From the sequence record PQ433349.1: DNA of 64,000 nt; one strand, written 5' to 3'. The position numbers and the translations under genes were made by a program. Positions 12,508 through 62,358 of the stretch are shown one piece after another; position 1 is the first letter of the stretch, and every line of letters begins with the position of its first letter. The DNA is from Escherichia phage vB_Ec-G1. Below the pieces are notes generated by a model. The model was not told the origin of the DNA. It did not search any database and was given only the letters and a program-made list of their open reading frames with translations.

Positions 12508-12987
12508 ATGGAACTCAATAAAGATACACTGTGGGAACTCTTCAAAACCTTCGCTGGTTTTAAAGAGAATTCTGAATCCCAACAAGATTCTATACCATCT
12601 CAAAAACCTGAAACTCTAGTCAAACAAAATAAATTTGATGAAGAAAAGATGCAGGTTATTGAGGTCTTGTATTGTCCACCTGAAGAAGACGATCTCCACG
12701 GAGAGCGCATGTCTGATTTGGAAATCAGGAAGATGGTTGACAACTTCAATGAGAATATTACCAATATTAGTGGTAATCTTGGTCACATGAAGAACACCGA
12801 TAAGTTTTCTCCAATTAAAGCTTGGGTAAATGAAGTCGATTGTTACATTGGTGACGAACTCGTTGTGGAAGGAACTCCCCTCGTTAAAATCCAATTCAAC
12901 GACCCTGAATTATATCAAGCTCGTAAAGACGGCGTTCTTAAAGGTTTGAGTATAGGCGCAATGGGCGTTAAAGTCAAGAAGGACTAA
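12508..12987 (+). CDS. head morphogenesis protein (function unassigned)
   Basis: 159 aa between portal and scaffold-like gene. Confidence 0.45.
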   Translation: MELNKDTLWELFKTFAGFKENSESQQDSIPSQKPETLVKQNKFDEEKMQVIEVLYCPPEEDDLHGERMSDLEIRKMVDNFNENITNISGNLGHMKNTDKFSPIKAWVNEVDCYIGDELVVEGTPLVKIQFNDPELYQARKDGVLKGLSIGAMGVKVKKD

Positions 12988-43914: not shown

Positions 43915-46587
43915 ATGTTTCCAATTCCAATATTTACTATTATGACCAGCACTGGTGTCGTTCCTCTGCCAGCAGGTATTGTTAAAAAAGTAATTACTTT
44001 AGATTACCCAGATAACGCTGGTAATTCTAACAGCAGTTTAGCAATTTTGCTTAATGATGGTAGATTGTTTACTCAAGGTGCAAACCTCTTTGGTGAGATT
44101 GCAGATGGAACTCGTAGTGCACGATTCAATAATTTCCACTTAGCTTCTACTGTAGTAGCAGATGTGTTTACCGCAGATCGTTGTTTTGTTATTAAAACTA
44201 ACAGTGGGGGATGGCAATATTCAGGATTGACAGCAGGGTTGGTAGGATCTATAGCAGCAGGTGGTACGGATGCATGTGTAACTACTTGGACCAGCTTTCC
44301 ATCTGTGATAACAGGGACTATTTCTTTAGCCAATCTTAAAGAGGTTAAAGGAGGGTATAACAATACTCTCTGGTTAATGAATAGCGGCGTTCTTTATGGA
44401 TCGGGTCAAAACACAGTAGGCAGTTTAGGTGCAAGTACTACTAACGAAGTTTCTACTCCTCGTCAGATAACAAGCGCAGCAGTTGCTTTTGATGCAGGTT
44501 ACAACCAATGCTCTTATGTCAACAATGTGGGAACCTTGCGTGTTTGTGGAGCTAGTAAAGGTTTAGCAGGTAATAATAACACAACAACAGCTTTTGTCAA
44601 TGCCAAGATATCCGCTACTGAAACAGTGTATGTCAAAGATTACATCAATACAGTTTCCCAGACAATAGTTGTAGGAGATACCTCCGGTGGCACGGGTACA
44701 GTAAACTACTTATATGTTAGATCTAATACAGAAACAACCTACACTAAACTGGATACCTTTGCAGCAGGTTTCTCAACATGGAAGTTTCCACCAAGCCGCC
44801 ACTCTTTTTTCGTTGGGATCAATAATTCCTTGTGGGCTATTGGTAAGAACTACACTGCAAACTTAGGTTTGGGGTATGATTCTGCGAGCGGAGATCCACT
44901 CCAAGTGGGAAAACCAGTTAAACCTGAAGGAGTGGGTTCCTGGGATATAAACAAGCTCACAAGCGTTCATACGCTGAATATGGATGTTACTAACCAATTA
45001 GGTTATCAAGGAACCTTTTTCGTTTATAATGGAGATATGTATTATTCCGGTATTTGGAAAGATGGGAAAGCCTCGTATCTGTTCAATAGTGGTCTAAACT
45101 ATAATAAATTCACACCAATAGCAAGCTCCGTGATTACGGGTGATATTCTGGCAACTGGTTTAACTACAGATTCTTTAGGAATTTGTATTGTAGGTGGAAC
45201 TAAACAGTTGACACATTCTGTTAGCCCAGAAGGAGGTAAACTTTTCAATATTAAATACACTTCTTCTGCCCCTCCAAACATGACAATATCATCTACTGGT
45301 TTAATGACTTTCCATGCAGAAGGTGGTTTTGATGCAGGTATGACAGCCTTAAACGCTGAAGGAACAACTTTATCAGATACCTCTGGAGGATATGCTTCAA
45401 CATTGAGCGTTTACACCCCTAGCTTATCTGCGATGGATGTAGGAACAACACAAACAATGGTAGCAGAAATAACACCAACAGGAGCAGCAAGCTTACCTGA
45501 TATGGTTGTTGAGTATACAACTACAGATCCTAATGTTGCTACAGTAGATCCTACAACTGGTGTAATAACTGGTGTTGGTGATGGTGGTTGTAGGATTGGT
45601 TGCACAGCTACGTATCAAGGTGTTGTTACCGCTTCTGATAGTTCTTATTTAACGGTGAATGCTGTTGCGGGAAAGGAGTTAGCTCCATCTCCGAGTAGTA
45701 GTTTAACGGTTCTAAACGGATATTTCAACCACTCGGCAGATGGGGCAATTACGTTCCCAACTTTATCGGGTACTGTTACACCAGCTAACTTTGTAGTTAA
45801 GGTGGATGACGTTGTAGTTCCTTCAAGTAAAGTAATATTTAGAAACAAAGCTTTCTCTACAGTGGATAGTTATCCAGCAGGAGAATATAGACTGACTATT
45901 GAATTTGCAAGTGCTTCAGTAGTTAATAGTGTGGAAGTGTCTATGGAAGCAAACCCAAGTCTTTTAGAACTTTGGGGCGGTAATAGAATCAGTTATTCTA
46001 CAAGCCCAGCCTCACAATTCTTAAAAGGTTGTGCTAACTTAAGACGAATAACTTCTGATTGTTTTAGTAACACATCTTACACCGGAACATCTATAAGCGG
46101 TATCTTCTCTGGCTGCACAAGTTTGACAGCTATCCCTGAAGGATTATTCAGTGATGCTTTATTTCCTTCAATGACAACAATGTCAAGCACGTTTGAAGGT
46201 TGTACATCTTTAACATCTATTCCTTCAGATTTATTTAAGAATCTGTCAAAAGTTACAAGATATTCTTACACCTTTAAAGATTGCACCTCTCTTGCAGAAG
46301 TTCCAGCAGGAATGTTTGATAATATTCCAACGAAAGTGACCTCTTTAACAGCTACATTCCAAGGTTGTTTAGGACTTACAGATTTTAATAAGATCTTTAA
46401 TGACAACCCAGGGTTAACTGTTTGTGGTAAACGTGGAGCATTATCTTCTTTCTTTAGTGGATGCACAAATCTTACAGGAACAGGAACAACATTAACAAAT
46501 ACATTAGGCGGAGTAGCTAATAGTTACCTATTCAGGTATTGCACAAAACTTTCTGATTATAACAACATTCCTTCGGGTTATAAATAA
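43915..46587 (+). CDS. tail fibre / receptor-binding protein with Ig-like (Big_2-like) region and C-terminal BspA-type leucine-rich-repeat-like units
   Basis: 890 aa; C-terminal repeats FSGCTSLTAIP, FEGCTSLTSIP, FKDCTSLAEVP, FQGCLGLTDF, FSGCTNLTG; upstream DPNVATVDPTTGVITGVGDG Ig-like signature. Confidence 0.6.
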   Translation: MFPIPIFTIMTSTGVVPLPAGIVKKVITLDYPDNAGNSNSSLAILLNDGRLFTQGANLFGEIADGTRSARFNNFHLASTVVADVFTADRCFVIKTNSGGWQYSGLTAGLVGSIAAGGTDACVTTWTSFPSVITGTISLANLKEVKGGYNNTLWLMNSGVLYGSGQNTVGSLGASTTNEVSTPRQITSAAVAFDAGYNQCSYVNNVGTLRVCGASKGLAGNNNTTTAFVNAKISATETVYVKDYINTVSQTIVVGDTSGGTGTVNYLYVRSNTETTYTKLDTFAAGFSTWKFPPSRHSFFVGINNSLWAIGKNYTANLGLGYDSASGDPLQVGKPVKPEGVGSWDINKLTSVHTLNMDVTNQLGYQGTFFVYNGDMYYSGIWKDGKASYLFNSGLNYNKFTPIASSVITGDILATGLTTDSLGICIVGGTKQLTHSVSPEGGKLFNIKYTSSAPPNMTISSTGLMTFHAEGGFDAGMTALNAEGTTLSDTSGGYASTLSVYTPSLSAMDVGTTQTMVAEITPTGAASLPDMVVEYTTTDPNVATVDPTTGVITGVGDGGCRIGCTATYQGVVTASDSSYLTVNAVAGKELAPSPSSSLTVLNGYFNHSADGAITFPTLSGTVTPANFVVKVDDVVVPSSKVIFRNKAFSTVDSYPAGEYRLTIEFASASVVNSVEVSMEANPSLLELWGGNRISYSTSPASQFLKGCANLRRITSDCFSNTSYTGTSISGIFSGCTSLTAIPEGLFSDALFPSMTTMSSTFEGCTSLTSIPSDLFKNLSKVTRYSYTFKDCTSLAEVPAGMFDNIPTKVTSLTATFQGCLGLTDFNKIFNDNPGLTVCGKRGALSSFFSGCTNLTGTGTTLTNTLGGVANSYLFRYCTKLSDYNNIPSGYK

Positions 46588-46589
46588 GA

Positions 46590-46619
46590 AAAGGAGCCAT
46601 TTGGCTCCTTTCTTTTATT
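46590..46619. terminator. bidirectional terminator between convergent late and replication blocks
   Basis: AAAGGAGCC-ATTT-GGCTCCTTT flanked by A-run on one side and T-run on the other. Confidence 0.7.
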
Positions 46620-46651
46620 CAGCGTTCAACCTCATACACTTGAAACAAACC

Positions 46652-47578
46652 TTAGAAGCAATGCAGGAAGTTTCTACCATATTGCAGTCCAATAGGGGCA
46701 AATGGAATATCATCATCGAAGTCCATTGGAGGTTCTTCTTGATTACTTGGTTCTGGTTGTGGTTCAGGTTTCTTCTCTTCTTTCTTCTCTTCTTTCTTAG
46801 GTTGTTCTGCGGAACCACGAATGGCAGCAGCAACTTTATCAGACAGAGCCAGAACTTTACGAGCAGAATCAATCAGATCTTCTACAGATACAGTCTTAAT
46901 GGTATGGTCTTTACAAGCATTGAGAATAGCGTGACCAACAGATGCCCCAAGATCATAATCATTAATATCAACGCCACGAGATTCAGCAATTTCAGATTTC
47001 AGCGTGACAGTTGCAGATTGAACAACCCCAGCGATATCGAAAGCATCGCCTTTAACACCATTACGAATCAGTTCCAGTGCACCATTTACTGCGTGACCAG
47101 TTTCCAGACCTACAGTATCACGTTTTTTATAGGACTGTTTAGGAGCAGCATCGTTGGAACCTTTATTGCCAGAAGATTTGTTAGACTTCTGAACACCATC
47201 GGTAGACAATACTGTAATACGAGATTTTTTAGTATTGTAGTAAGTTTTACCGCCTTTATTATCAACGCGATCAATATCAATACTTACTTCTACACCTTTT
47301 TCAATAGTGATCCAATTATCACCTTCTTTGACTTGCAGGTTTTCATAACCTTCTTTCAGTTCAATATCACCAAGAGAAATCCAAACACCTTTCTCATCTG
47401 GTTTAGCACCTTTCTCTTTCAGAACAAGAGAAGCTCGGTGAGTTGAAACAATCGTTTTTCCTTCCCAATGAAAAGTTTTAGGTTCAGCGAATTTATCCAG
47501 TTTAACGTAGTCTACGATACCAGTTGCATAAGTTACGGTTTTGCCTTTACGATCAGTTTCAGTATTAATTACGGACAT
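46652..47578 (-). CDS. ssb: single-stranded DNA-binding protein
   Basis: 308 aa; OB-fold-like N-terminus, Gly/Lys-rich linker, acidic C-terminal tail ending DFDDDIPF; RBS GAGGAGA. Confidence 0.8.
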   Translation of the reverse strand: MSVINTETDRKGKTVTYATGIVDYVKLDKFAEPKTFHWEGKTIVSTHRASLVLKEKGAKPDEKGVWISLGDIELKEGYENLQVKEGDNWITIEKGVEVSIDIDRVDNKGGKTYYNTKKSRITVLSTDGVQKSNKSSGNKGSNDAAPKQSYKKRDTVGLETGHAVNGALELIRNGVKGDAFDIAGVVQSATVTLKSEIAESRGVDINDYDLGASVGHAILNACKDHTIKTVSVEDLIDSARKVLALSDKVAAAIRGSAEQPKKEEKKEEKKPEPQPEPSNQEEPPMDFDDDIPFAPIGLQYGRNFLHCF

Positions 47579-49254: not shown

Positions 49255-52200
49255 CTAGTGACAGGACGCCCAGGAGTTACCCACATCATATCCGGCAGTA
49301 AGCTGAACATTAAGATTGTAAAATTCTCCAGCCTTAGTAACAGCTAAAGCAGCAAGTTCACCTGCCCGACTATAGGCTGTAAACCATCCACCTTTGGGAG
49401 ATTCATGAATGTTAGCCCAAATTTGCCCTGTCTCTTTTTCCTTATTATGCTTCCATTCTTCAACTTTAGCAAGGCATTCTTTATCAATTTTCTTTTGTTC
49501 TTCAGGATCGTCTACTTTCTTCCAACCTAATGATTCAGGTGAAAACCATTTAAATTCTACAAGGTTACGAGAAACTTCAAGCTGGGCTTCATCGTGATAT
49601 GCAATCATTTGTTGCACGAAGTCTTTATTCTTCCAGTCATCTTTAAAGAAGTCAACACTTAGCCCTTCTTCTTCGATCATGTCGTCATAAATAACCATTG
49701 CACGTTTAGCACAGATAACCCCACCACTTTGGAACAGAGAGTTAAGAATCGCGTGAGCAGAACGAGTAGGAACCTTACGACCGTCAATACCCAAAACATA
49801 CTGTTTACCAGTCTTAACCCAGAAATCGTTTAAACGTTCTTTAAGACGCGCCAGTGGGAATGCAGCTTCCCAGAAAGCATCGAACACCAACTGACCTGTA
49901 AACTTATCGCTACCAATTGTTTTAGCAACCTTGTCGGCTTGTGCACCATAAGTAATACCATACTTAACAGATTTAGCAGGACTACGTTCAAATTTACGTC
50001 CAATAGTTTCAGTGATACGTTTTGCCATCATTGTGTGAACATCATTAGGTTTCTCTAACAACAGAGCGTTACAATATTCATGTGGCTCCGGCTCGTACCG
50101 CCAACAGTTTCCTGTGATGGTAATGCAGTCTTTCTGACGCATGACCCACGTACCAAGTTCTGTTTGTGGACACCAAACATCCTCTACACCCCACTCTTCA
50201 ATAGTCAAACTTTGAACAGGAATGTGAGAGCGGTTAGCCAATGTTACCACTTTTACTTTCTGCTCTTTTGTATTGAAAGCTACAGAGATATTGCCTCCAT
50301 GCACCAGGTACGAGGCAGTTAAAGCTGCTTCAAAAAGTTCACCTGGGTTCTGCGCCCAACGCCAAACAGGTTTTTGTTTATGTTCATGCCAGTAACCATC
50401 TGCAATCAAGAAACCTTCCAAGAAAGCTACACGCTCGGCATGAGACATATTAACTACACGCTCTACCCACGGAACATCCCATTTACCTTGTTGAACAGAA
50501 GTTAAACTATTTACCTGATCTTGTTCCATGTTAAATGGAGCATTACAAATAATATTATCTCCTGTGCAAAGCTCGGCAGTTGTTCTGACTTTAGGCACAT
50601 AAGTATTCCCTTTACTACGGGTATTAACATACCAACGGTGATCTGCTGTTGCACGGTAAGTGTGTGATTTCCCTTTAATCTCAAACGTCTTACTATTTTT
50701 ATAGAAGACCTTACCTTTTACTTTAGTCCATTCTTTCAGACCTGTTTCAGCATTGTACCCTAAAATCTCATCCCCTTCCTTCAGGTCGTGATATCCTACC
50801 CAACCTTTACGAGTCAAAGCTTGAGCATCCATCGGCACACAGTAGTGTGACTCAATCTTTGCTTCCAAAGAGTCGAAGTCATAACCGATCTGGAAGTATT
50901 TAGGAACTTCTACACCAAACAAGTTACGCATCTCCCATCCAAACAAAGATGTGACACGAGGAATATTAGCTACAGATCTATGTTTCATACGAGAGGTTGC
51001 AGCATCACATGTAGCGGCTGGGGTAGGAATACGCCCATCTGCCCTTACTGCGGCTAAGAAACCTTTATCGTATTCTTGATCTTCTTCATCTTCTTCCCAA
51101 TCAGCACCGCCACCTAAAATAGAGTTCCTACGATGCTTATACGTTAAGTATTCTACAATCTGTGTAGCATAGGGAAATTTCTCACCCAAAGCTTGCAAAT
51201 TGGGACAGATTTCTTTTTCCTGACCTTTGGTAAAACATGGGTTAGTCAATACTTTAAGACCGCGACCTTTACCTTTTGCTATACGCTCTTGAATCTTCCT
51301 TTCCAAGGTTTCCGGTGTGCACTCCAGATGATCACAACGGTCCTGACAAAAATTAGAAGATAAAGTTTGCTCAACGTAAGCTCGAATACCTTTCTGAAGT
51401 TCTTCCTCACTCTTTTTAATCTTGGTGCCAGATTTAAGAGTCAAATCTTTATCTTTATATTCTGATGGTACCCAACCTAATCCTACAAGCCAGTTTTTAA
51501 TATGGGTTGTATCGTTCAATGTTGCAGGGATGTTAGGATCACACAGAGGCTCATCTGCTGCAACTGGCAGTTTCCACTCTTTCCCCAACATAACTAACCA
51601 CCAATCGCCATCCCTCTCTTCCAAATGACCATCATGTTTCTTAGCAAAATTGATCATATGGTTAGTTGGTTCTAGGTTCTTTTTAATTTGCAATTTAGGC
51701 GGAATAAAAGCTTTAAGATAACCTTTTGTTGCTGGTTTAGGTGGCAAAATAGGCTCAACGAGTAAACGAAGACGCTCCATTTCTGCATCCAAAAAAGCAA
51801 GGTTCTCTTCTGCTTGTTTCATGTTAAAAGCAAACCCACGGTGTTCCTGGCGTGTAATAATGTCTGCTACACGTTGTTCAAGTTCAAATGGACCTTCCCA
51901 TTTATCATAATCACCCCATTCTTCCATAAGGTAATTATATACGCTCGTATTGGCTTTGTTGTCATAGATACAGTAATAAAGCATATCCGCAGCAAAAGTC
52001 TTAAATCGATCTTCTTCTGGAATCTCTTTACGGAAATCTATTTTTACATCACCACCTGCTTTTCGAGAAAGTGCTGCCAAGCTATGTCCTGATTTGCCCT
52101 CAATCTTTCGATCTGGGTTTAACACTTTACTCAAAATCAAGGAGTCAATAAGTTTTACCTTATTTTTGCCCCACGTATTATATTTAACACTGTAATCTAA

Positions 52201-52587
52201 TCCATAAAACAGTTTTGTAGCCAACCAGTCGTAGTTGATACCGTTGTGAGCCACAGCCATTTCAACCAGATATTCAGGCTTGTCTTTAAAATAACCTTCA
52301 TGATTAATAAAATCTGGGAAATCTTTTAGTTGAAAATGCGTGTAATCTTGCGCCACATACTCTTTAAGAACATATGTGTATTTACCATCTGACTCTTCAT
52401 AAGGACGCCCATCAAAGATGTATTTAGGGCCATCGTGGAAAGCTACTATTTCTCCTGTTTCATGGTTCTCTAAGACAATACAGTGCATTTGAAATGTGTC
52501 TTTGAGACGATAAGGACTAGCTAAATAATCAATAGTGTCATTATTCAACAATCCGTTTGCTTCAATATCCCATGTAAACTTACTCAC
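49255..52587 (-). CDS. family A DNA polymerase with 3'-5' exonuclease domain, intein-containing precursor
   Basis: 1110 aa; exo motif DIEANGL; motif A GYDFDSLEAKIESHY, motif B RSPAKSVKYGITYG, motif C YHDEAQLEV; GTG start after AAAGGAGG. Confidence 0.9.
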   Translation of the reverse strand: MSKFTWDIEANGLLNNDTIDYLASPYRLKDTFQMHCIVLENHETGEIVAFHDGPKYIFDGRPYEESDGKYTYVLKEYVAQDYTHFQLKDFPDFINHEGYFKDKPEYLVEMAVAHNGINYDWLATKLFYGLDYSVKYNTWGKNKVKLIDSLILSKVLNPDRKIEGKSGHSLAALSRKAGGDVKIDFRKEIPEEDRFKTFAADMLYYCIYDNKANTSVYNYLMEEWGDYDKWEGPFELEQRVADIITRQEHRGFAFNMKQAEENLAFLDAEMERLRLLVEPILPPKPATKGYLKAFIPPKLQIKKNLEPTNHMINFAKKHDGHLEERDGDWWLVMLGKEWKLPVAADEPLCDPNIPATLNDTTHIKNWLVGLGWVPSEYKDKDLTLKSGTKIKKSEEELQKGIRAYVEQTLSSNFCQDRCDHLECTPETLERKIQERIAKGKGRGLKVLTNPCFTKGQEKEICPNLQALGEKFPYATQIVEYLTYKHRRNSILGGGADWEEDEEDQEYDKGFLAAVRADGRIPTPAATCDAATSRMKHRSVANIPRVTSLFGWEMRNLFGVEVPKYFQIGYDFDSLEAKIESHYCVPMDAQALTRKGWVGYHDLKEGDEILGYNAETGLKEWTKVKGKVFYKNSKTFEIKGKSHTYRATADHRWYVNTRSKGNTYVPKVRTTAELCTGDNIICNAPFNMEQDQVNSLTSVQQGKWDVPWVERVVNMSHAERVAFLEGFLIADGYWHEHKQKPVWRWAQNPGELFEAALTASYLVHGGNISVAFNTKEQKVKVVTLANRSHIPVQSLTIEEWGVEDVWCPQTELGTWVMRQKDCITITGNCWRYEPEPHEYCNALLLEKPNDVHTMMAKRITETIGRKFERSPAKSVKYGITYGAQADKVAKTIGSDKFTGQLVFDAFWEAAFPLARLKERLNDFWVKTGKQYVLGIDGRKVPTRSAHAILNSLFQSGGVICAKRAMVIYDDMIEEEGLSVDFFKDDWKNKDFVQQMIAYHDEAQLEVSRNLVEFKWFSPESLGWKKVDDPEEQKKIDKECLAKVEEWKHNKEKETGQIWANIHESPKGGWFTAYSRAGELAALAVTKAGEFYNLNVQLTAGYDVGNSWASCH
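50107..50841 (-). mobile_element. intein (245 aa) with LAGLIDADG-type homing endonuclease motif in DNA polymerase
   Basis: insert starts Cys583 right after motif A, has TxxH-like TADH, LEGFLIADG, ends ...ITITGN827 followed by Cys828; separates motifs A and B. Confidence 0.75.
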
Positions 52588-53381
52588 TATTCCTCCTTTC
52601 TAATGTTCTCCAGAACCCACTGAAGTTCTTTTAAACTTAAACTTCTTACTCCCGCAGTTTTACTAGCTTCAGCTTTAAGTAACGGGTAAGCCTCAATGAT
52701 ACGCGTTTTAAGATCAGAAGTCAAGGCTTTTAAAAAATAGGTAGATGCTTCAGATAAAGAATCTTCTTCTGATAACACTTTACCTGCACTTGCTCCCGCT
52801 CTCCTAACGGCTATATCGTAGTCTTTACTGTTACCTAATACGAATAGTCGATTCTCTCCTAAAACAACGGGAGAACGCTTCTCGTTGCGTTTAATCCATA
52901 TCTGGAATACACAAGGAACATCCCAAGGTTCTCCATGAAGAATAAAAGATCCTTTTGGACATTCTTCTTCGTAAAGAAGATGCATGTGGGGATTTAGTTT
53001 GTGTGCAAAAAAGATTTTTTGAAATGTGCGAGGCAAGATAAAACAAATACCACCTTCGTTATCCAACATTTCAGCACAATGGTTAAAGAACTTAATGGCA
53101 AGACTAGCATTTTTTCCAAACGGAGGATTACCGACAAAAGCAGTTACACTACCAACAGACTCAACAGATTGAGCTAAAAAATCTGCCTCAATACAATCTT
53201 CAAACTTAGGGTCAATATCAAAAGAAGTTATGTTTTTAAAACAAGAAGAGAAAGCTCCTTCTCCCGCAGATGGTTCTACGTAGTTAGCTTCCTCTCCAAA
53301 AATTTCTTTGATCTTATCACATAAGAACCCCGCATAAGCGGGGTTAGTGTAATATTGATCAAGTGTGTTCAACTTGCTCAA
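52587..53381 (-). CDS. N6-adenine DNA methyltransferase (motif I before NPPF; N4-cytosine not excluded)
   Basis: 264 aa; VEPSAGEGAF then VGNPPFG; TTG start after AAGGAGG; 1-nt overlap with polymerase start. Confidence 0.7.
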   Translation of the reverse strand: MSKLNTLDQYYTNPAYAGFLCDKIKEIFGEEANYVEPSAGEGAFSSCFKNITSFDIDPKFEDCIEADFLAQSVESVGSVTAFVGNPPFGKNASLAIKFFNHCAEMLDNEGGICFILPRTFQKIFFAHKLNPHMHLLYEEECPKGSFILHGEPWDVPCVFQIWIKRNEKRSPVVLGENRLFVLGNSKDYDIAVRRAGASAGKVLSEEDSLSEASTYFLKALTSDLKTRIIEAYPLLKAEASKTAGVRSLSLKELQWVLENIRKEE

Positions 53382-55693: not shown

Positions 55694-55705
55694 TTTGTTC
55701 TCCTG

Positions 55706-55984
55706 TTAAAATGGTTCGTTAGTCTCCATCATATATTCTGCTTCTAGTTCTTCCATGTGCTTTCTAAATTGGAAAGCAATTTCTGCTACAGTTACATTTA
55801 AATCTTTTTCAAAAACTTCTGTAGAGCCTTCATAAAAACGAATACCGTCAATTAAAAGCCCTCCGTGGTAATCCCAATCACTTTCACGAGAAAGCGGGTT
55901 AGGCTCTTCATAATAGTAATCCACCTCCACGACTAAGGCTTTCCCGTTACGAGTGGTGTATTCAAAATCAAAAGTGTTAATCAT
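55706..55984 (-). CDS. hypothetical protein
   Basis: 92 aa. Confidence 0.5.
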   Translation of the reverse strand: MINTFDFEYTTRNGKALVVEVDYYYEEPNPLSRESDWDYHGGLLIDGIRFYEGSTEVFEKDLNVTVAEIAFQFRKHMEELEAEYMMETNEPF

Positions 55985-56928
55985 TATAGCTCCTCAAATA
56001 AAAGTCTACGACGCTCATTCAACACATCAATGTGATAATGAGTCCTGACATACTTAGCTAATGCTAATCCTTTCTCCATGCAAACATCGGGAGCACTTAA
56101 TAAGTATTCCGTAATATCTTTCCACTCGGAAGGTGTTTCAGCAAAGAATAACAGATCTTTAAACTCTTGTGTATGATAATTCTCACGAGGAGAACAGATC
56201 AAAGGTAAACCCTTAGCACCTGCCTCAAGAATTTTAAGATTGCTTTTTGCATTATTAAACACGTTATCAATCAATGGCGCAAGACTGATTTGATGACCAT
56301 CGTAAGATTCCATGTAGTTGGCATATGGTCTTACACCTTCATAAACACAAGTTGGTGCTACATTTTCCCTGATTACAGACCATTCACGACTACTTAAAAC
56401 TTCAGAATCCCTACGAAAACCACATATTGTAAGATCTTTACCAAAATCGGGCAAGATAGCCAAATCTTGTTTATGTGTTTCACTTCCAGCCCAGACTAAT
56501 GGAGTTTTGGAGTAGCGATCACGGGTCAACACAAATTGACCTTCATCGTAAGGAAGTCCATTAGGGATTATGTGCACATTATCATTGTATTGTGAAAGTT
56601 CAACTTGCAAGGCAGGTGTCGTAGTTGTAACAAGGTCACTGTGCTCTAAAAACCATTTTAAATGTTCACGAATACCTGATTCAAAAATACCTTCTAACAT
56701 GTGTCCTTTTGGAATAACTAAAGAGTCATCCAAATCCATAACCATTTTAAAGCCTAGGTTTTTAAGGGCTAAAAAGCCCTCTTTACCTTTTGTTGGCACC
56801 CCGTTAAAAACGAAAACGTTGTGTTTAGGTTGTGAAGAGAACTGCCTTGAGTAAGGCAGCACTACCCTATGGAAATCGCAGACACTATAATTGATTCCGT
56901 TACGATTGTCAAGAATTATTTGTCCCAT
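55984..56928 (-). CDS. glycosyltransferase-like protein (GT-B-like)
   Basis: 314 aa; KILEAGAKGLPLICS; paralogous to 56936-57883. Confidence 0.55.
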   Translation of the reverse strand: MGQIILDNRNGINYSVCDFHRVVLPYSRQFSSQPKHNVFVFNGVPTKGKEGFLALKNLGFKMVMDLDDSLVIPKGHMLEGIFESGIREHLKWFLEHSDLVTTTTPALQVELSQYNDNVHIIPNGLPYDEGQFVLTRDRYSKTPLVWAGSETHKQDLAILPDFGKDLTICGFRRDSEVLSSREWSVIRENVAPTCVYEGVRPYANYMESYDGHQISLAPLIDNVFNNAKSNLKILEAGAKGLPLICSPRENYHTQEFKDLLFFAETPSEWKDITEYLLSAPDVCMEKGLALAKYVRTHYHIDVLNERRRLLFEEL

Positions 56929-56935
56929 ACATCAC

Positions 56936-57883
56936 CTACAAACTTTCAATAACCTGGCGTCGCAATTCGTTTGCATCTGCCAGATTGTAGTGTGTTCGAA
57001 CATGTTCAGCCAAGAACAAGCCACGATCTTCCCGATAGTTTGGATTGCGAAGAAGCTTAACAATTTCGTAATGCCATTCTGCTTTATTCTCTGCGTAAGC
57101 AACAGCACGAGCATCTACAGGGTTAAAATAAGGTAACACCTTAGAACAAACAATCGGAATACCTTTTGCCCCAGCTTCCAGGATTTTGAGATTACTTTTG
57201 CAATTATTAAAATCATTATCTACCAAAGGAGCTATAGCAATAGCATGACTTTCGTAAACATTCATGTAATTATCTAAATCTTTTACAGCAGCTTTATATT
57301 TGGCATTTGGTAAATTTCTGCGAATCTTAATCCACTCTTGTCCCGTGATGCTCTGCGATGCTTCATATCCCGCAATAGTAAGAAGTTCATCATCGAAAGT
57401 ATTAGAGACTAGTCGTAAATCGGGTTCGTGACTAGCACCGCCAGCCCATACAACAGGGGTACCGGATGAACGATCATTTGACAAAGTGAATTGTCCACTA
57501 TCAAAAGGAAGTGCATTTCGGATCACAACAACATTCCTATTTAAGTGACGGATCTTATATGCCAAGTATTCCGTAGTCACAATAACCACATCAGCAAGCT
57601 TAACCATAGCCACAATAGCATGAGTGTTTGACTCGTATAAACTTGCCAAATAATGCTCTGGATTAAGTTGGTAAAAATCATCTAAGTCTACAACAATCTT
57701 AACACCTTGGCGTTTCAAAGATAAAACGTATTCTGCACCTTTAGAGTGGATACGGTTAAACACAACAACATCTTTCTTAGGTTGAATATTATTGTTGTTA
57801 AATGGTATAACAATACGATGATAGTCACAACCGCTGTGAGGTTTTGCATCAATTTTTAGTTTAGACCATTTTTTATTTGACAT
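56936..57883 (-). CDS. glycosyltransferase-like protein (GT-B-like), paralog
   Basis: 315 aa; shares CD(F/Y)HR, VDLDD, P(L/V)VWAG, APL(I/V)DN.FNN.KSNLKILEAGAKG, VRTHY with neighbour. Confidence 0.55.
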   Translation of the reverse strand: MSNKKWSKLKIDAKPHSGCDYHRIVIPFNNNNIQPKKDVVVFNRIHSKGAEYVLSLKRQGVKIVVDLDDFYQLNPEHYLASLYESNTHAIVAMVKLADVVIVTTEYLAYKIRHLNRNVVVIRNALPFDSGQFTLSNDRSSGTPVVWAGGASHEPDLRLVSNTFDDELLTIAGYEASQSITGQEWIKIRRNLPNAKYKAAVKDLDNYMNVYESHAIAIAPLVDNDFNNCKSNLKILEAGAKGIPIVCSKVLPYFNPVDARAVAYAENKAEWHYEIVKLLRNPNYREDRGLFLAEHVRTHYNLADANELRRQVIESL

Positions 57884-58556
57884 GTGCTAGTGCCTCCTCA
57901 TAAGAAAGTCGGATTTTCCCATTTTTAATATCCTCTAAAGATGCTTTGTATTCTTCCCAGTTAATACCAATAGCAGCTTCTTTCTCTTCTTTTGTCAGAT
58001 TAGCAAAAGGCATAGGATTGTTTCCAAAAACATCGTCTGGGTGGATATAAGCCATGATACGAAGTGGACAAGGTGTTGCCTGAATACCATGATTCAAACC
58101 AGCAGCTTTCAAACGGTGTCCCCATTCAGCATCTTCAAAACCATAACCGTGAGTGTAAGGGCGGAAATAACCCATCTTCTCAACAACGGCACGAGAATAC
58201 ATTGCAAATTGACACATTGCAAGTTCCCAGAGAATAACTTCTCCTTTGCTTCCAACAACTTTATCTTTGAAATACTCCGGCATACCAAAGAAATCCCATC
58301 CTCCAGAAACAGCCTGATCTACAAAGTATGTTTCCCATCCTTCCATGACTGGGTAGCAATCATCGTCAAAAATAAACCAATAATCATAACCTTCTTCATA
58401 AAACTGGTGCATAAGTTCATTCCTGGCATAAGCTACACCTTTACGATCTGGATCGTTGAATACTCGAAAATCTGCACGTGGATCTGTTACAAGGTAGTCT
58501 TTAAGTGGACGGACGCCTACAGTGATAACACCCACTCCGATTTTAATATTTTCCAT
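57873..58556 (-). CDS. glycosyltransferase (GT-A-like, DxD motif)
   Basis: 227 aa; YWFIFDDDCYP. Confidence 0.55.
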   Translation of the reverse strand: MENIKIGVGVITVGVRPLKDYLVTDPRADFRVFNDPDRKGVAYARNELMHQFYEEGYDYWFIFDDDCYPVMEGWETYFVDQAVSGGWDFFGMPEYFKDKVVGSKGEVILWELAMCQFAMYSRAVVEKMGYFRPYTHGYGFEDAEWGHRLKAAGLNHGIQATPCPLRIMAYIHPDDVFGNNPMPFANLTKEEKEAAIGINWEEYKASLEDIKNGKIRLSYEEALAHVK

Positions 58557-58564
58557 TATCTCTC

Positions 58565-59128
58565 CTAAATAGTTTTACTGTGATCGTGACAGTGTAATAA
58601 ATGATGTATAGACCGTTGAGGATTTGTTTGACCTAATCTGTAAATGTGAAACAGATACATTCCCCGCATCAATCCTAACCTCTTTCCTTTTTCATGTAAA
58701 GTGCGAGAGAAAATTAAGTCGAATTGGATAGATTTTTCTTCGAAAGGAATTTCATTCCACAACGATTTTCTAAAAAGCAAAAAGAAACCTGCCAGAGGTG
58801 TTCCGAAAGGAACTTCTTCAACACTCACTTTATGATATTCTCTTGCAATCTTAGCATATTCTATATGGTTTAGAATATCTGGATCATCGTTAATTTGGTT
58901 AGAGAAAAGCTGATAACCACTACCTAACCTGTTACAAGTTGCACCTATTACATCAAAAGGTGGGTTTGAAATAACAAGCTCTTCAAGCATAGATGGTTGA
59001 TCAGGCAGGAGGAACATTGTATCGGTATCTCTTAAGCACACCCAACTATCATCTGGAAGAACGGCAATAGCTTCATTGATAGCCTTGCCGATATTTCCTG
59101 TCAGATAGGGAGTAATATAATAAATCAT
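58565..59128 (-). CDS. putative glycosyltransferase-like protein
   Basis: 187 aa; N-terminal YYITPY...LRDTDTMFL DxD-like pattern; weak assignment. Confidence 0.4.
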   Translation of the reverse strand: MIYYITPYLTGNIGKAINEAIAVLPDDSWVCLRDTDTMFLLPDQPSMLEELVISNPPFDVIGATCNRLGSGYQLFSNQINDDPDILNHIEYAKIAREYHKVSVEEVPFGTPLAGFFLLFRKSLWNEIPFEEKSIQFDLIFSRTLHEKGKRLGLMRGMYLFHIYRLGQTNPQRSIHHLLHCHDHSKTI

Positions 59129-59144
59129 TCTCCCCTCCGTTATA

Positions 59145-59336
59145 TTAACTGTCAGCTACAATCCCACGTTTAATCATTTCTTGTTGGATTTGGATGACAC
59201 GATCTCGTGCTTCCATATATTCTTTAAAAGATTCTTGGAGATGGTCACGAGCTACATCCCGTAGTTTAATCAGTTTGTCGTTTGTCACTTCTTGAAGAGA
59301 GATCTCGCCAGTTTCATTGGTCCCAAGCGTTTTCAT
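59145..59336 (-). CDS. hypothetical protein
   Basis: 63 aa, RBS AAGGAGG. Confidence 0.45.
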   Translation of the reverse strand: MKTLGTNETGEISLQEVTNDKLIKLRDVARDHLQESFKEYMEARDRVIQIQQEMIKRGIVADS

Positions 59337-59544
59337 TTACAACCTCCTTAATAGCTACTGCACAGTTCTTACAAATACATTGACCTTTGTTCTTAGAAAT
59401 TTCAATGTAAGGTTCATTTTCGTTTTCTCCGCGTCGTGAATCGTATATTACAGTATTGAAGCAGACAACGCAAATGTTTTTAATAACGACATATTTTTGC
59501 ACTTTCTGTTTAGTGCGGAAATTGACTTCAATGACTTCTCCCAT
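59314..59544 (-). CDS. small Cys-rich protein
   Basis: start at internal ATG (MGEVIEV...) after AGGGGAG; two CxxC pairs. Confidence 0.45.
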   Translation of the reverse strand: MGEVIEVNFRTKQKVQKYVVIKNICVVCFNTVIYDSRRGENENEPYIEISKNKGQCICKNCAVAIKEVVNENAWDQ

Positions 59545-59829: not shown

Positions 59830-60351
59830 TTAACTCCCCTTTGGTAGATAGAAACCATGCACTTTATCTCGATAAACAAGACGCATATCACGCTCCCAGT
59901 GTGTCCTTATATTCCGTTTCTTGAAGTATAGAGCACCTTTAGTAACATCTAAAACAGACCGCAATTCAGGAAAATGTTTCTCTAAATAAAGTAAACGCTC
60001 CGCTATTGCTTTTGCTTCCTGCCACTTATCTTTCTCTGTTACGTTAAAAGTTTTCGCATATGAGAATTGCCCTTTCTGGAACAAGACTCCTCTGACTGTG
60101 TTAGGAAAGTAGGCATCATTTCTTCTATTGATTACCACATTCCCAACGGCATTCATTCCTTTTTTACCCAGACCGCGACCTTCTGCGTAAATTGCACAAG
60201 CTAATAGAATTTTATCATTATATTGCTTTGTACATTTGTGAACTACTTTAGCGGTTTTTACGTTTGCAGCTTCGGCTTTCGCCACAACAGGTGTAAATGT
60301 AAAAGCAGTTAAGGATAGTAACGCAACTGTTACAAAGTTTTTTATCAGCAA
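59830..60351 (-). CDS. secreted cell-wall hydrolase (SleB-like), candidate endolysin
   Basis: 173 aa; N-terminal signal peptide-like FVTVALLSLTAFTFTPVVAKA; CAIYAEGRG...GNVVINR; TTG start after AAGGAGG. Confidence 0.65.
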   Translation of the reverse strand: MLIKNFVTVALLSLTAFTFTPVVAKAEAANVKTAKVVHKCTKQYNDKILLACAIYAEGRGLGKKGMNAVGNVVINRRNDAYFPNTVRGVLFQKGQFSYAKTFNVTEKDKWQEAKAIAERLLYLEKHFPELRSVLDVTKGALYFKKRNIRTHWERDMRLVYRDKVHGFYLPKGS

Positions 60352-60450: not shown

Positions 60451-61053
60451 TTATGGACATTCATACCATTCTTTTTTACCACCGAAGGCCATCACCACAT
60501 CACAAATATCCAGACCAGCTTTGCCTACACCATATGCTTTCAGCTTCCATTCCCCATCTTCACGAACCAAGGAAGCCACGTGGCAGATTGTGTTGCCAGC
60601 TACTTCAGGAGCCAGGAAGTCAAAATCCAGAATTTCCACATTGCGCTCGGAGTCGAAGATTTTAAGCATACCTTCAGAAGCATGACCAAAACGTTTCAGA
60701 CCTGTATCATCATCAATGGTCAGAACAAAGGCAATCTCTTGTGCATCAGGGGAGATTTTAGCCAGAGTAATATCAATCTGCTCCATGCTGCCAGTTCCAT
60801 CACGAACATCGTCACCAGCGAAGGTAGAACGTTCAGGATCAAACTTGTTAGCATAGCAAACCAGATGACGTGCAGACAGCATTTCAGGATTGCCAGCGGC
60901 ATTGTGACGACAAACCAGTGCACTTACATCCAGATCCAGTTTAGAATCAGATTTCCAAGAGAATTCCAGGCGCAGTTCTTTCAGAGCCGGAGCAACTTTC
61001 TTCAGGGAAATTTTTTCGCTAGAGCCTTTTTTCAGGGAAATTTTATCAGTCAT
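60451..61053 (-). CDS. TerD-domain protein
   Basis: 200 aa; duplicated ISLKK N-terminus, LDLDVSALV, GDDVRDG, GEWK consistent with TerD family as recalled. Confidence 0.75.
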   Translation of the reverse strand: MTDKISLKKGSSEKISLKKVAPALKELRLEFSWKSDSKLDLDVSALVCRHNAAGNPEMLSARHLVCYANKFDPERSTFAGDDVRDGTGSMEQIDITLAKISPDAQEIAFVLTIDDDTGLKRFGHASEGMLKIFDSERNVEILDFDFLAPEVAGNTICHVASLVREDGEWKLKAYGVGKAGLDICDVVMAFGGKKEWYECP

Positions 61054-61338: not shown

Positions 61339-61567
61339 TTCTTCCTCCTAATGTTATCTCCGGTTTGTATATACGAAGAATTATAGCGTTTTCATTTTCT
61401 TTGTCAACCCATTCTTCATAATCAGGCCATACATGAATCTCTACTCTACTTACAATATCTTCCATTCGCACAGTCCCAATGAAATACTCTTTGAGACTGC
61501 GCATAATGAAAGCTTCTCTCTCACGCCAATAATTTTCTATGACTTGAGAGGCAAGCTCGTCGATCAT
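61319..61567 (-). CDS. hypothetical protein
   Basis: 82 aa. Confidence 0.45.
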   Translation of the reverse strand: MIDELASQVIENYWREREAFIMRSLKEYFIGTVRMEDIVSRVEIHVWPDYEEWVDKENENAIILRIYKPEITLGGRSVKLRN

Positions 61568-62358
61568 TTTTTAGCACCTACTTTAACAACCCACTCTCCG
61601 AACTCTTCAGATAAGAGTTTGTCATAAAGCTCTGAATCTGTCAAGTCTAAATCTTTAATACCAATAAAACCAACATTATCATAAGCATTTGCCAGTTCTT
61701 TCAGGAAGCCAAACTTCTCATTACCAACGCCAACCATGAACCAATAAATAGGTTTATTCTTATTCTCTTCGATAAGACGACGAACAGCACTAGGATCACC
61801 ATTCTCACCATCCGTCTGGAAGAATACAACACCAGGGGTAACGTCAGCACCTGGTTCAGATACAGCTACAACTTTTTCACGCTCTACAGACACTGTTTCA
61901 GTTTTACCAAGCAGACGATTAAAGAAGCCTTTCTTTGGAGCCTCCTCTTGTACCACTTGTTTAGTGGTAATATATTTAGTAACAGTGCCAAAATACTCAT
62001 CGTAGATATCCGCCATTACAGGGGCGTAATTTGTTCCACCTCCGATACGAACATTACGCATACATTTACCAACATAGTCATCGTAAACATCTGCTGTTGC
62101 TGGAGTAAGCTCTTGGGAACTCGTATTGAAGGCCCACATATCAATTTGTTGATTATCGTCGAACAGCATACCAAAAGGAAGCAGTTTACCTACAAAATCA
62201 CTCACTACCCCACTAGAATATAGACCATGCATACTACCAGAAATATCTAGAGCACATGCTACACGAAGAACAATCTTACCTTCATTCAGGTTCTTATTCT
62301 TTTTCAGAGAGAAAGCAAGGTTTTCTTGACGTTTTTTCAGGCTGATTTTCTCGGACAT
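61564..62358 (-). CDS. von Willebrand factor A (vWA) domain protein, TerY-like
   Basis: 264 aa; MIDAS motif DISGSM; N-terminus MSEKISLKK echoes TerD N-terminus. Confidence 0.7.
   Translation of the reverse strand: MSEKISLKKRQENLAFSLKKNKNLNEGKIVLRVACALDISGSMHGLYSSGVVSDFVGKLLPFGMLFDDNQQIDMWAFNTSSQELTPATADVYDDYVGKCMRNVRIGGGTNYAPVMADIYDEYFGTVTKYITTKQVVQEEAPKKGFFNRLLGKTETVSVEREKVVAVSEPGADVTPGVVFFQTDGENGDPSAVRRLIEENKNKPIYWFMVGVGNEKFGFLKELANAYDNVGFIGIKDLDLTDSELYDKLLSEEFGEWVVKVGAKK

What the first reader, a model, noticed from the sequence alone, without database searches (positions are those of the whole stretch)
55984..59128. Four-gene glycosyltransferase cluster next to replication genes and a DNA methyltransferase
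Three to four consecutive leftward genes look like glycosyltransferases: a tandem GT-B-like paralog pair (KILEAGAKG(L/I)P), a GT-A-like protein with FIFDDDCYP, and a weaker DTD-containing candidate. They sit directly upstream of the primase-helicase, methyltransferase and polymerase. In phages, glycosyltransferases in a replication operon often decorate modified DNA bases; alternatives are modification of host surface glycans or virion proteins. No hydroxymethylase or other base-modifying enzyme is visible in this window.
Basis: inference. Interest (0 to 1): 0.7.

Follow-up and report, generated by a model that had tools for sequence, protein, structure and literature searches.

The report
Four-glycosyltransferase cassette of a coliphage
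Four neighbouring genes of this phAPEC8-like E. coli phage do encode sugar-adding enzymes, but the evidence points away from sugar-coated DNA and towards a short, probably rhamnose-containing glycan built on another target, most likely the proteins of the virus particle.

Summary
Window 55984-59128 (minus strand) holds four glycosyltransferase genes: two GT-B paralogs (41% identical) and two DXD-bearing GT-A enzymes, directly upstream of the primase-helicase, an adenine-methylase-like gene and PolA. The window is a Phapecoctavirus (about 98% identical to phAPEC8), where these genes are already annotated 'glycosyltransferase'.

The DNA-decoration reading is not supported:
- No ThyA-type hydroxylase or hydroxymethylase exists anywhere in the phAPEC8 genome; its only thymidylate-synthase-like gene is ThyX-like.
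- Published work shows Phapecoctavirus DNA is cut by HincII. phi92-like phages with the orthologous cluster are exceptionally restriction-sensitive.
- The folds are no closer to T4 DNA glucosyltransferases than to many other glycosyltransferases.

The link to replication genes is lineage-specific. The core pair (GT-A 'GT3' plus GT-B) is a mobile cassette, sometimes fused into one protein. In lambdoid, HK97-like and P22-like phages it sits in the late operon beside terminase, portal and head genes.

The phage family also carries a complete dTDP-L-rhamnose pathway. My best guess (about 0.4) is cytoplasmic glycosylation of virion proteins, as in mycobacteriophage Che8. Rivals are host envelope glycans (about 0.25), sparse or unconventional DNA glycosylation (about 0.1), and other acceptors. 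The acceptor must be found experimentally.

The parts
55984..56928 (-). GT1: GT-B fold glycosyltransferase (GT4-family-like, Pfam Glyco_trans_1_2). A lineage-specific extra paralog of GT2.
   Evidence: PHROG 7162, E 1.9e-145. Pfam PF13524 scores 25.2 bits against a cut-off of 25. It is 41% identical to GT2. It is present only in phAPEC8-like, phi92-like and L005/L006-type phages; other carriers have a single GT-B that is closer to GT2.
56936..57883 (-). GT2: GT-B fold glycosyltransferase, the conserved GT-B member of the mobile cassette.
57873..58556 (-). GT3: GT-A fold glycosyltransferase with an invariant DDD (DXD) motif and a YGxED motif. It is GT2/GT7-like and is the second core member of the cassette.
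   Evidence: PHROG 2456, E 3e-78. Invariant residues. Weak Pfam hits to TAGT, Glycos_transf_2 and Glyco_transf_7C, all below their cut-offs. Family member P0126 passes the Glyco_transf_7C and Glycos_transf_2 cut-offs. It is 25-28% identical to glycosyltransferases of 356 Mycobacterium phage records and 23% identical to the Che8 gp108 N-terminal domain. Natural fusions with the GT-B exist: P0130 and P0134.
58565..59128 (-). GT4: small GT-A fold glycosyltransferase with a D34-x-D36 motif. It is a variable accessory member of the cassette.
55706..55984 (-). 92-aa ORF between GT1 and the primase-helicase gene (phAPEC8 gp075-like). It is syntenic context, not shown to belong to the glycosylation function.
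   Evidence: PHROG 4240, unknown function. It is conserved at this position in the large myovirus relatives L004-L008 but not in the small-phage cassettes.
53915..55693 (-). Primase-helicase gene (context; same leftward gene block).
   Evidence: Toprim_2 and DnaB_C domains in the orthologs. Annotated as such in phAPEC8. Homologs occur in 690 phage records, most of them without the GT cassette.

Best explanation
**What is shown.** The four genes encode soluble cytoplasmic glycosyltransferases: two inverting-type GT-A enzymes (GT3, GT4) and two GT4-family-like GT-B enzymes (GT2 and its duplicate GT1). They form one pathway. GT3 and the GT-B travel together between unrelated phages and occur fused into one polypeptide. 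The phage family also encodes a complete RmlB/A/C/D pathway.

**What is inferred.** Acting in sequence, the enzymes assemble a short glycan of about three or four sugars during lytic growth. dTDP-L-rhamnose is the likely donor for at least one step. One enzyme attaches the first sugar to an acceptor made in the infected cell, and the others extend it.

**The acceptor I think most likely** is one or more virion proteins (capsid, tail or fibre subunits), glycosylated in the cytoplasm before or during assembly. This would give the particle a glycan coat, as in mycobacteriophage Che8. DNA is unlikely as the acceptor.
For: **Enzyme identity.**
- PHROG matches.
- Invariant DXD motifs.
- No hydrophobic segment that could span a membrane.

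**One pathway.**
- GT4-GT3-GT-B keep the same order in Stephanstirmvirinae, Klebsiella phage KP13-16 and a Serratia prophage.
- The GT3 plus GT-B pair is adjacent in at least 8 further distinct, unrelated viral contigs.
- Natural GT3::GT-B fusion proteins exist.
- In contig L004 an NDP-hexose 4,6-dehydratase-like gene is inserted inside the cassette.

**Sugar supply.**
- phAPEC8 gp166-169 pass the NCBIfam equivalog cut-offs for RmlB, RmlA, RmlC and RmlD.
- RmlC is found in the same phage lineages as the cassette.

**Timing and virion link.**
- In lambdoid and HK97-like phages the pair lies, in the late-gene orientation, between the Q antiterminator or lysis genes and the terminase and portal genes.
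- In a P22-like contig it lies between TerL and the portal gene.
- In Cellulophaga phages the GT4-like domain is fused to a second GT domain and sits between the portal/minor capsid genes and the protease/major capsid genes, next to a Methyltransf_24 gene.
- In L026 and L033 the immediate upstream neighbours are an Ig-domain structural protein and a tail-fibre protein.

**Precedent.**
- The only phage relatives of GT3 outside this lineage group are glycosyltransferases of cluster-F-type mycobacteriophages, from the gene block 108-110 of Che8.
- Che8 virions are reported to carry glycans on capsid and tail-tube proteins made by the phage's own glycosyltransferases.
- The structural neighbours of GT2 include protein O-glycosyltransferases: GtfA, Gtf3 and SdgB.
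Against: - No glycoprotein has been demonstrated in any of these phages, and none of the papers I could read reports one.
- The similarity of GT3 to the mycobacteriophage enzymes is weak: 23-28% identity, confined to the GT-A core.
- The structural proteins in the window show no serine/threonine-rich tail or repeat that would mark an obvious acceptor.
- A cassette that hops between phages with unrelated capsids needs either a very permissive first enzyme or a universal acceptor. That consideration favours DNA or host lipid-linked glycans.
- In lambdoid prophages, the slot between Q or the lysis genes and the terminase gene is also a classical site for cargo genes unrelated to the virion.
- The structural neighbours of GT2 equally include enzymes acting on undecaprenyl-linked glycans, LPS core and lipids.
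Confidence: 0.4

Rival explanations
1. Remodelling of host envelope glycans. The enzymes would add rhamnose-containing side chains to undecaprenyl-linked intermediates, LPS core, ECA or capsule units of the infected cell or lysogen. This would mask receptors, exclude superinfecting phages, or stop progeny from adsorbing to debris.
For: - The best structural matches of GT2 include PglA, WlaC/PglH, PimA/B, WbnH, WaaB and WaaG, which act on lipid-linked or LPS acceptors.
- In prophage-type contexts the cassette lies in slots typical of cargo genes, after Q or after the lysis genes.
- These phages recognise surface glycans, and rhamnose is a common O-antigen sugar (own knowledge).
Against: - None of the four proteins has a membrane segment, unlike the classical Gtr conversion systems (the Gtr architecture is from own knowledge).
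- There is no flippase, polymerase or ligase partner.
- The genes are strictly conserved in more than 130 virulent phages with short lytic cycles.
- In the lambdoid contexts they are oriented and packed as part of the late lytic transcript rather than next to the integrase.
Confidence: 0.25
2. DNA glycosylation. The enzymes would transfer sugars to bases of phage DNA, either on an as yet unrecognised hydroxylated base or directly on canonical bases, at low density or at specific sequences.
For: - The genes lie in the same leftward block as the primase-helicase and PolA genes, as b-gt and gene 42 do in T4.
- GT3 has weak TAGT and beta-glucosyl-HMC-alpha-glucosyltransferase similarity around the DXD motif.
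- DNA is a universal acceptor that would suit a mobile cassette.
- A late-operon position would also suit modification just before packaging.
- Olsen et al. proposed rhamnosylation of hydroxymethylated nucleotides.
- One small-phage contig with the cassette carries an Nmad5 gene 5 kb away.
Against: - No ThyA-family homolog exists in the complete phAPEC8 genome or the window (best E 0.047), nor near the cassette in 34 loci. The genome's thymidylate-synthase-like gene is ThyX-like.
- Known glycosylated pyrimidines all start from a hydroxyl handle made by a ThyA homolog or TET.
- The annotated 'DNA methyltransferases' lack Pfam support, and none is a C5-methylase.
- The TAGT and PHROG 842 matches cover only about 40 residues and fall below the cut-off.
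- HincII cuts Phapecoctavirus and Justusliebigvirus DNA.
- phi92-like phages with the orthologous cluster are exceptionally sensitive to restriction-modification systems.
- Three of the four enzymes are acidic, with pI 5.0-6.0.
- The cassette occurs in lambdoid phages with O-type replication genes.
Confidence: 0.1
3. Another acceptor: a host or phage non-structural protein (host takeover by glycosylation), an RNA such as a tRNA, or a small-molecule or nucleotide metabolite, possibly linked to the adjacent Ter-type stress gene set.
For: - The structural neighbours of GT2 also include small-molecule glycosyltransferases: BshA, sucrose-phosphate synthase, trehalose synthases, tetrahydrobiopterin glucosyltransferase and SenB.
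- In all large-myovirus relatives the cassette is syntenic with the TerC-TelA-vWA/TerF-TerD genes and the endolysin gene.
Against: - Three or four different transferases plus a dedicated deoxysugar pathway argue for an oligosaccharide on a macromolecule rather than a single glycoside.
- The Ter genes do not accompany the cassette in small phages.
Confidence: 0.2

Closest known systems
Mycobacteriophage virion glycosylation operon (Che8 gp108-110; Freeman et al. 2023, known here through citing papers)
   Same: Both are phage-encoded blocks of several soluble glycosyltransferases outside the structural module that build glycans on a product of the infected cell. GT3 shares detectable sequence similarity with the GT-A domain of gp108-type proteins.
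   Different: Che8 has three GT-A-type genes, one fused to a methyltransferase domain, and no GT-B. Here there are two GT-A and two GT-B enzymes, no methyltransferase, a Gram-negative host and a phage-encoded rhamnose pathway. Glycosylated virion proteins have not been shown for this phage.
T-even DNA glucosylation (gp42 dCMP hydroxymethylase with alpha- and beta-glucosyltransferases)
   Same: Both have glycosyltransferase genes embedded among replication genes. The T4 enzymes are also GT-B folds.
   Different: There is no ThyA-family partner and no sequence similarity to b-gt. The structural similarity is only at the generic GT-B level (ranks 20 and 35). The DNA is restriction-sensitive. Four enzymes and a dTDP-sugar pathway replace one or two UDP-glucose transferases.
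Arabinosyl-5-hydroxycytosine systems of RB69, DLP3 and HY126 (Lee et al. 2026, PMC13326640)
   Different: Those systems depend on a flavin-dependent ThyA homolog that makes 5-hydroxy-dCMP, and their DNA is highly restriction-resistant. Neither feature is present here.
TET-associated glycosyltransferases (Pfam TAGT, PF20691)
   Same: GT3 and some members of its family give weak TAGT matches around the DXD region.
   Different: The scores fall below the family cut-off (19.3 against 27.5 bits), and only about 37 residues align. No C5-methylase or dioxygenase partner was found in the annotation or by Pfam.
Autonomous capsid glycosylation of chloroviruses and giant viruses (review PMC4691112, seen)
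   Same: In both, the virus encodes cytoplasmic glycosyltransferases together with its own deoxysugar (rhamnose) synthesis. GT4's structural matches include Mimivirus R699 and R655 and STIV A197.
   Different: Those are eukaryotic or archaeal viruses. Homology is only at the fold level, and the acceptor here is unknown.
Prophage O-antigen conversion systems (GtrABC and O-acetylases)
   Same: Both are phage-borne sugar-modifying genes, and some copies of the cassette lie in prophage cargo slots.
   Different: Gtr proteins are integral membrane proteins encoded next to the integrase (own knowledge). The four proteins here are soluble, and the cassette lies in late or replication gene blocks.

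Membership tests
GT-B fold, GT4-like glycosyltransferases (Pfam Glyco_trans_1_2 / Glycos_transf_1 clan): GT1 and GT2 | Two Rossmann-like domains with the GT-B topology | tested here: met
GT-B fold, GT4-like glycosyltransferases (Pfam Glyco_trans_1_2 / Glycos_transf_1 clan): GT1 and GT2 | Score at or above the Pfam gathering threshold | tested here: inconclusive
   GT1 scores 25.2 bits against 25 (just met). GT2 scores 20.6 against 25 and 22.8 against 27 (not met). Many orthologs carry precomputed PF13524 hits. A profile search against PDB finds only the C-terminal region of TreT, PglA and BshA, at E 0.002-0.03.
GT-A fold, DXD glycosyltransferases: GT3 and GT4 | Conserved DXD metal and nucleotide-sugar binding motif | tested here: met
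   In GT3, D64, D65 and D66 are invariant in 17 sequences. In GT4, D34 and D36 are invariant in 21 sequences.
GT-A fold, DXD glycosyltransferases: GT3 and GT4 | GT-A Rossmann-like fold | tested here: met
T-even type DNA glucosylation system | ThyA-family dCMP hydroxymethylase (or hydroxylase) encoded by the phage | tested here: not met
   phmmer --max with T4 gp42 against all six-frame ORFs of the complete phAPEC8 genome and the window gave a best E of 0.047 at 9 bits. The only thymidylate-synthase-like gene is ThyX-like.
T-even type DNA glucosylation system | Virion DNA resistant to most restriction enzymes and systems | tested here: not met
   This rests on literature, not on my own experiment. 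HincII cuts all Phapecoctavirus and Justusliebigvirus isolates. phi92-like BASEL phages are exceptionally RM-sensitive and carry the orthologous cluster.
T-even type DNA glucosylation system | Transferase homologous to T4 alpha- or beta-glucosyltransferase | tested here: not met
   There is no sequence match to b-gt. The structural match is at the generic GT-B level only, below about 19 other enzymes.
TET-associated glycosyltransferase (TAGT) systems | TAGT domain above the Pfam threshold, with C5-methyltransferase and TET/JBP dioxygenase partners | tested here: not met
   TAGT scores 19.3 bits against 27.5, over residues 32-68 only. No such partners appear in the phAPEC8 annotation. The annotated methyltransferases have no Pfam support. 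I did not run a dedicated TET profile search.
Mycobacteriophage-type virion glycosylation | Operon of several phage glycosyltransferases homologous to Che8 gp108-110 | tested here: inconclusive
   A multi-GT operon is present. Only GT3 shows homology: 23% identity to the gp108 N-terminal domain, E 6e-4 pairwise, and E 3e-8 to other cluster-F phages. GT1, GT2 and GT4 have no counterpart there.
Mycobacteriophage-type virion glycosylation | Glycans covalently attached to capsid or tail proteins | not testable with these tools
   This needs mass spectrometry or glycan staining of virions. No S/T-rich acceptor-like segment stands out in the structural proteins.
Prophage Gtr-type O-antigen conversion | Integral membrane transferase and flippase proteins encoded beside the integrase | tested here: not met
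   The maximum 19-residue hydropathy is 0.8-1.7, so no transmembrane segment is present. The contexts are late operons or replication blocks.
dTDP-L-rhamnose pathway (donor supply), in the same phage genome but outside the window | RmlA, RmlB, RmlC and RmlD all present and above the equivalog cut-offs | tested here: met
   For phAPEC8 gp166-169, scores against cut-offs are 431/365, 464/361, 225/156 and 237/224 bits. That any of the four transferases uses dTDP-rhamnose is inferred, not tested.

The most novel reading that the evidence does not exclude
The cassette glycosylates phage DNA without any hydroxymethyl or hydroxy-pyrimidine handle. Examples would be sparse or sequence-specific N- or O-linked rhamnosyl oligosaccharides on canonical or methylated bases, added just before packaging. 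This would be a new chemistry of DNA modification. It could move between unrelated phages as a two- or three-gene module, and it would escape ordinary restriction tests.
Probability: 0.06. Interest if true: 0.9.

Novelty: new variant of a known kind. Interest (0 to 1): 0.45.

Why it matters
Phapecoctavirus and phi92-like phages are among the most frequently isolated broad-host-range coliphages and are used in therapeutic cocktails. A conserved set of four glycosyltransferases plus a private rhamnose pathway, eight genes in all, must pay for itself, yet its target is unknown. Two papers raised the question in passing.

If the target is the virion, this would be, to my knowledge, the first glycan-coated phage of a Gram-negative host. 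It could affect antibody recognition, clearance and stability of therapeutic phages, as reported for mycobacteriophages.

The GT-A plus GT-B pair is a mobile cassette found in lambdoid, P22-like and HK97-like phages. This gives small, genetically tractable systems in which to identify the acceptor.

The analysis also serves as a caution: glycosyltransferases next to replication genes are not sufficient evidence for DNA hypermodification.

Tried and rejected
1. Single-sequence and profile searches against PDB sequences for GT1, GT3 and GT4 gave nothing usable for GT3 and GT4. For the GT-B they gave only weak GT4-family hits.
2. NCBIfam has no model for any of the four proteins.
3. The word-indexed homolog searches returned almost only the same phage lineage. 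Context in distant phages came from the viral-contig scan instead.
4. Pfam on multidomain relatives of GT3 did not identify the extra domains. BLAST showed that two of them are GT-B fusions.
5. A scan for serine/threonine-rich acceptor-like segments in the structural proteins was negative.
6. Promoter and terminator scans were uninformative beyond showing no terminator inside the cluster.
7. The BFVD fold search for GT4 gave only generic GT-A viral proteins apart from the Cellulophaga homolog. TAGT ranked 38th.
8. I considered the neighbouring methylase as a functional partner and rejected it, because it is missing in relatives that keep the cassette.
9. I considered rV5-type phages as a natural 'minus cassette' control, but they do not share this primase-helicase, so synteny could not be compared.
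10. The Freeman 2023 and Schwarzer 2012 papers are not held in the library. Their content is cited second-hand or from memory.
11. The family appeared phage-restricted, and the expected gain was low.


Full report
**Identity of the window.** The region 55700-59400 is 98-99% identical to 64 phage records of the genus Phapecoctavirus (phAPEC8-like E. coli myoviruses, subfamily Stephanstirmvirinae) and 60-80% identical to 6 more. In RefSeq phAPEC8 the four genes are gp071-gp074, already annotated 'glycosyltransferase'. They lie between small hypothetical genes and an endolysin gene on one side, and gp075, the primase-helicase, a putative N6-adenine methyltransferase and DNA polymerase I on the other.

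**The observation.**
- Each matches a PHROG glycosyltransferase family over its full length.
- Pfam is weak: GT1 just reaches Glyco_trans_1_2. GT2 and GT3 are below threshold. GT4 has no Pfam glycosyltransferase match, only a chance-level hit at E 0.23.
- NCBIfam and PDB sequence searches are silent.
- GT1 and GT2 are 41% identical paralogs.
- GT3 has an invariant FDDD and a YGxED motif. Its profile finds 1,516 cluster representatives, some of which pass the Pfam Glyco_transf_7C and Glycos_transf_2 cut-offs.
- None of the four proteins has a membrane segment. Three are acidic.
- There is no minus-strand terminator-like site within the cluster.

**Is DNA the acceptor?** Known phage DNA glycosylation attaches sugars to a hydroxyl created by a ThyA homolog (5-hydroxymethyl- or 5-hydroxy-pyrimidines) or by TET. 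This was restated in a 2026 study of arabinosyl-5-hydroxycytosine.
- I retrieved the complete phAPEC8 genome in four pieces and searched every six-frame ORF of it and of the window with T4 gp42 at maximum sensitivity. Nothing beyond noise was found.
- The gene annotated 'thymidylate synthase' is a divergent ThyX.
- Three genes annotated 'DNA methyltransferase' have no Pfam methylase domain. One of them is the XkdF-type prohead protease.
- GT3's TAGT and beta-glucosyl-HMC-alpha-glucosyltransferase matches cover only the roughly 40 residues around the DXD motif and are below threshold.
- T4 alpha- and beta-glucosyltransferases rank 20th and 35th among the structural neighbours of GT2.
- In one phage collection, HincII fingerprinting cut all isolates except three Tevenvirinae. 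The five Phapecoctavirus and the Justusliebigvirus phages were among those cut.
- The BASEL study found the phi92-like phages 'exceptionally susceptible' to restriction-modification systems 'despite a putative dTDP glycosylation machinery'. Those phages, for example PaulScherrer, carry the orthologous four-gene cluster at 66-77% identity.

Wholesale base replacement or dense glycosylation is thus very unlikely. Sparse or unconventional modification cannot be excluded.

**What the cassette is.** Context in distant relatives was the most informative evidence.
- In divergent large myoviruses the order GT4-GT3-GT-B, small ORF, primase-helicase, PolA is conserved. This holds in contigs L004-L006 and in Klebsiella phage KP13-16.
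- Within that group the methylase is absent from L004-L006. Some members have a single GT-B that is closer to GT2. One (L004) has an NDP-hexose 4,6-dehydratase-like gene inserted between GT4 and GT3.
- GT1 is therefore a lineage-specific duplicate.
- The same GT4-GT3-GT-B trio, 37-51% identical, lies in a Serratia sp. M24T3 prophage between the lysis genes and the HNH, TerS, TerL and capsid genes.
- A P22-like contig has the GT-B and GT3 between TerL and the portal gene.
- A scan of viral contigs with the GT3 profile returned 27 loci. In the loci that are not Stephanstirmvirinae-like, GT3 is usually directly adjacent to a GT2-type GT-B.
- The neighbours of the cassette in those loci are enriched for portal, terminase, cement, NinG, Q-antiterminator and replication-O domains.
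- Individual examples read: Q, GT3, GT-B, endolysin; endolysin, GT3, GT-B, HNH, terminase; Ig-domain structural protein, GT3, GT-B, TerL; and tail fibre, GT-B, GT3, homing endonuclease, TerL.
- The GT4-like domain is the C-terminal half of a two-GT-domain protein of Cellulophaga siphophages. That gene sits inside the head module next to a Methyltransf_24 gene.
- Two metagenomic proteins are natural GT3::GT-B fusions.
- No ThyA homolog lies within 10 kb of the cassette in any of 34 loci.
- The primase-helicase family occurs in 690 phage records, against about 140 with the glycosyltransferases.

The association with replication genes is therefore an accident of one lineage. The cassette itself is a mobile glycan-building module, and in small phages it is placed in the late lytic transcription unit.

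**Sugar donors.**
- phAPEC8 gp166-169 are bona fide RmlB, RmlA, RmlC and RmlD. They lie about 70 kb from the cluster and outside the window.
- RmlC is distributed in the same lineages as the cassette: Phapecoctavirus, Justusliebigvirus, Klebsiella KP13-26, Citrobacter Tr1 and Pseudomonas PsgM04F.
- One isolate, ESCO37, keeps the cluster but lacks rmlA and rmlB. This suggests the host pathway can supply the precursors.
- dTDP-beta-L-rhamnose is normally used by inverting enzymes (own knowledge). GT3 or GT4 would then be the likely rhamnosyltransferase, and the GT4-like GT-B enzymes would use UDP- or GDP-sugars. This assignment is inference.

**Most likely mechanism.** Three or four different soluble transferases, a dedicated deoxysugar supply and late-operon placement point to stepwise cytoplasmic assembly of a short oligosaccharide on a macromolecule made during lytic growth. 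The validated precedent is virion glycosylation in mycobacteriophages.
- The only non-lineage phage relatives of GT3 are glycosyltransferases of 356 Mycobacterium phage records. They map to the Che8 gene block 108-110.
- Protein O-glycosyltransferases (GtfA, Gtf3, SdgB) are among the structural neighbours of GT2.

I therefore favour glycosylation of virion proteins, at confidence about 0.4. The weaknesses are real:
- The homology is weak.
- There is no experimental glycoprotein.
- No obvious acceptor sequence is visible.
- Cassette mobility would be easier to explain with a universal acceptor.

The main rival is modification of host lipid-linked or LPS glycans (about 0.25). DNA (about 0.1) and other acceptors (about 0.2) follow.

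**Novelty and verdict.** The genes are already annotated, and the puzzle has been noted in the literature. No paper in the searchable library assigns a function.

New in this analysis:
- structural confirmation of all fold assignments;
- the whole-genome absence of a handle-making enzyme;
- recognition that GT3 plus GT-B is a mobile, sometimes fused cassette placed in late or head regions of small phages.

I rate it a new variant of a known kind (phage-encoded glycosylation machinery), of moderate interest.

Noticed in passing
window 50107-50841 (minus strand), inside the PolA gene 49255-52587: The DNA polymerase I gene carries a precise 245-codon insertion relative to phAPEC8. The flanking 583 and 283 residues are 100% identical. 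The insert begins with Cys, ends with ...TGN followed by Cys, and contains a LAGLIDADG-like 'LEGFLIADGY' segment. It looks like an intein with a homing-endonuclease domain, although Pfam gives no hit. Klebsiella phage KP13-16 also has a PolA ORF of about 1108 aa.
   Followed up: partly
window 60451-61053 and 61564-62358 (minus strand); relatives L005, L006, L008: A TerD-domain protein and a vWA-TerF-like protein lie just upstream of the endolysin gene and the GT cluster. In relatives the same block also contains TelA, TerC and Band_7 genes, so it is a phage-borne tellurite-resistance-type (Ter) stress gene set. It is conserved in synteny with the cassette in the large myoviruses, but not in small phages.
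   Followed up: partly
window 52587-53381 (minus strand): The methylase-like gene between the primase-helicase and PolA genes has a GNPPFG motif and only a sub-threshold Eco57I-family hit. It is absent at this position in relatives L004-L006, which keep the GT cassette.
   Followed up: partly
window 12508-12987 (plus strand); phAPEC8 gp117: The gene annotated 'DNA methyltransferase' in RefSeq phAPEC8, between the portal and scaffold/capsid genes, is an XkdF-type prohead serine protease (Peptidase_S78_2, E 1e-11). Two other phAPEC8 'DNA methyltransferase' annotations (gp177, gp194) have no Pfam support.
   Followed up: yes
phAPEC8 record 45712-46710 (L002), outside the window: The 332-aa 'putative thymidylate synthase' is a divergent ThyX-type protein (Pfam Thy1, 33 bits), not ThyA. 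Next to it lies an NT5C-like deoxyribonucleotidase.
   Followed up: partly
L012 16754-17359 (minus strand): A P22-like 45.8-kb contig that carries the GT-B plus GT3 pair also has a strong Nmad5 gene ('nucleotide modification associated domain 5', E 2e-41) inserted on the opposite strand within its head/tail gene region. It is the only DNA-modification-flavoured neighbour seen in any cassette locus.
   Followed up: no
Proteins P0130 and P0134 (metagenomic, 550 aa): These are natural single-polypeptide fusions of a GT3-like GT-A domain (N-terminal) with a GT1/GT2-like GT-B domain (C-terminal).
   Followed up: partly
Phage records MG065650, MG065689, MG065639, MG065656 ('Campylobacter phage'), OP562383 ('Acinetobacter phage vB_AbaM_ABPW7'): Records labelled as Campylobacter or Acinetobacter phages match E. 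coli Phapecoctavirus or Justusliebigvirus genomes in this region. The nucleotide sequence of OP562383 is 98.4% identical to the window. The glycosyltransferase proteins are 99.5-99.6% identical in MG065650 and OP562383, and 66-76% in the three phi92-like records. Host mislabelling or contaminating coliphages seem likely.
   Followed up: no
window 59830-60351 (minus strand): The endolysin is a SleB/Hydrolase_2-type cell-wall hydrolase with a hydrophobic N-terminal signal-like segment (MLIKNFVTVALLSLTAFTFTPVVAKAEA). This suggests a secreted or signal-anchor-release endolysin.
   Followed up: no
Escherichia phage ESCO37 (OM386659), literature: This Phapecoctavirus keeps the four-GT cluster (98.1% identical) but is reported to lack the rmlA and rmlB genes. 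It is a natural variant useful for testing dependence on the host dTDP-sugar supply.
   Followed up: no
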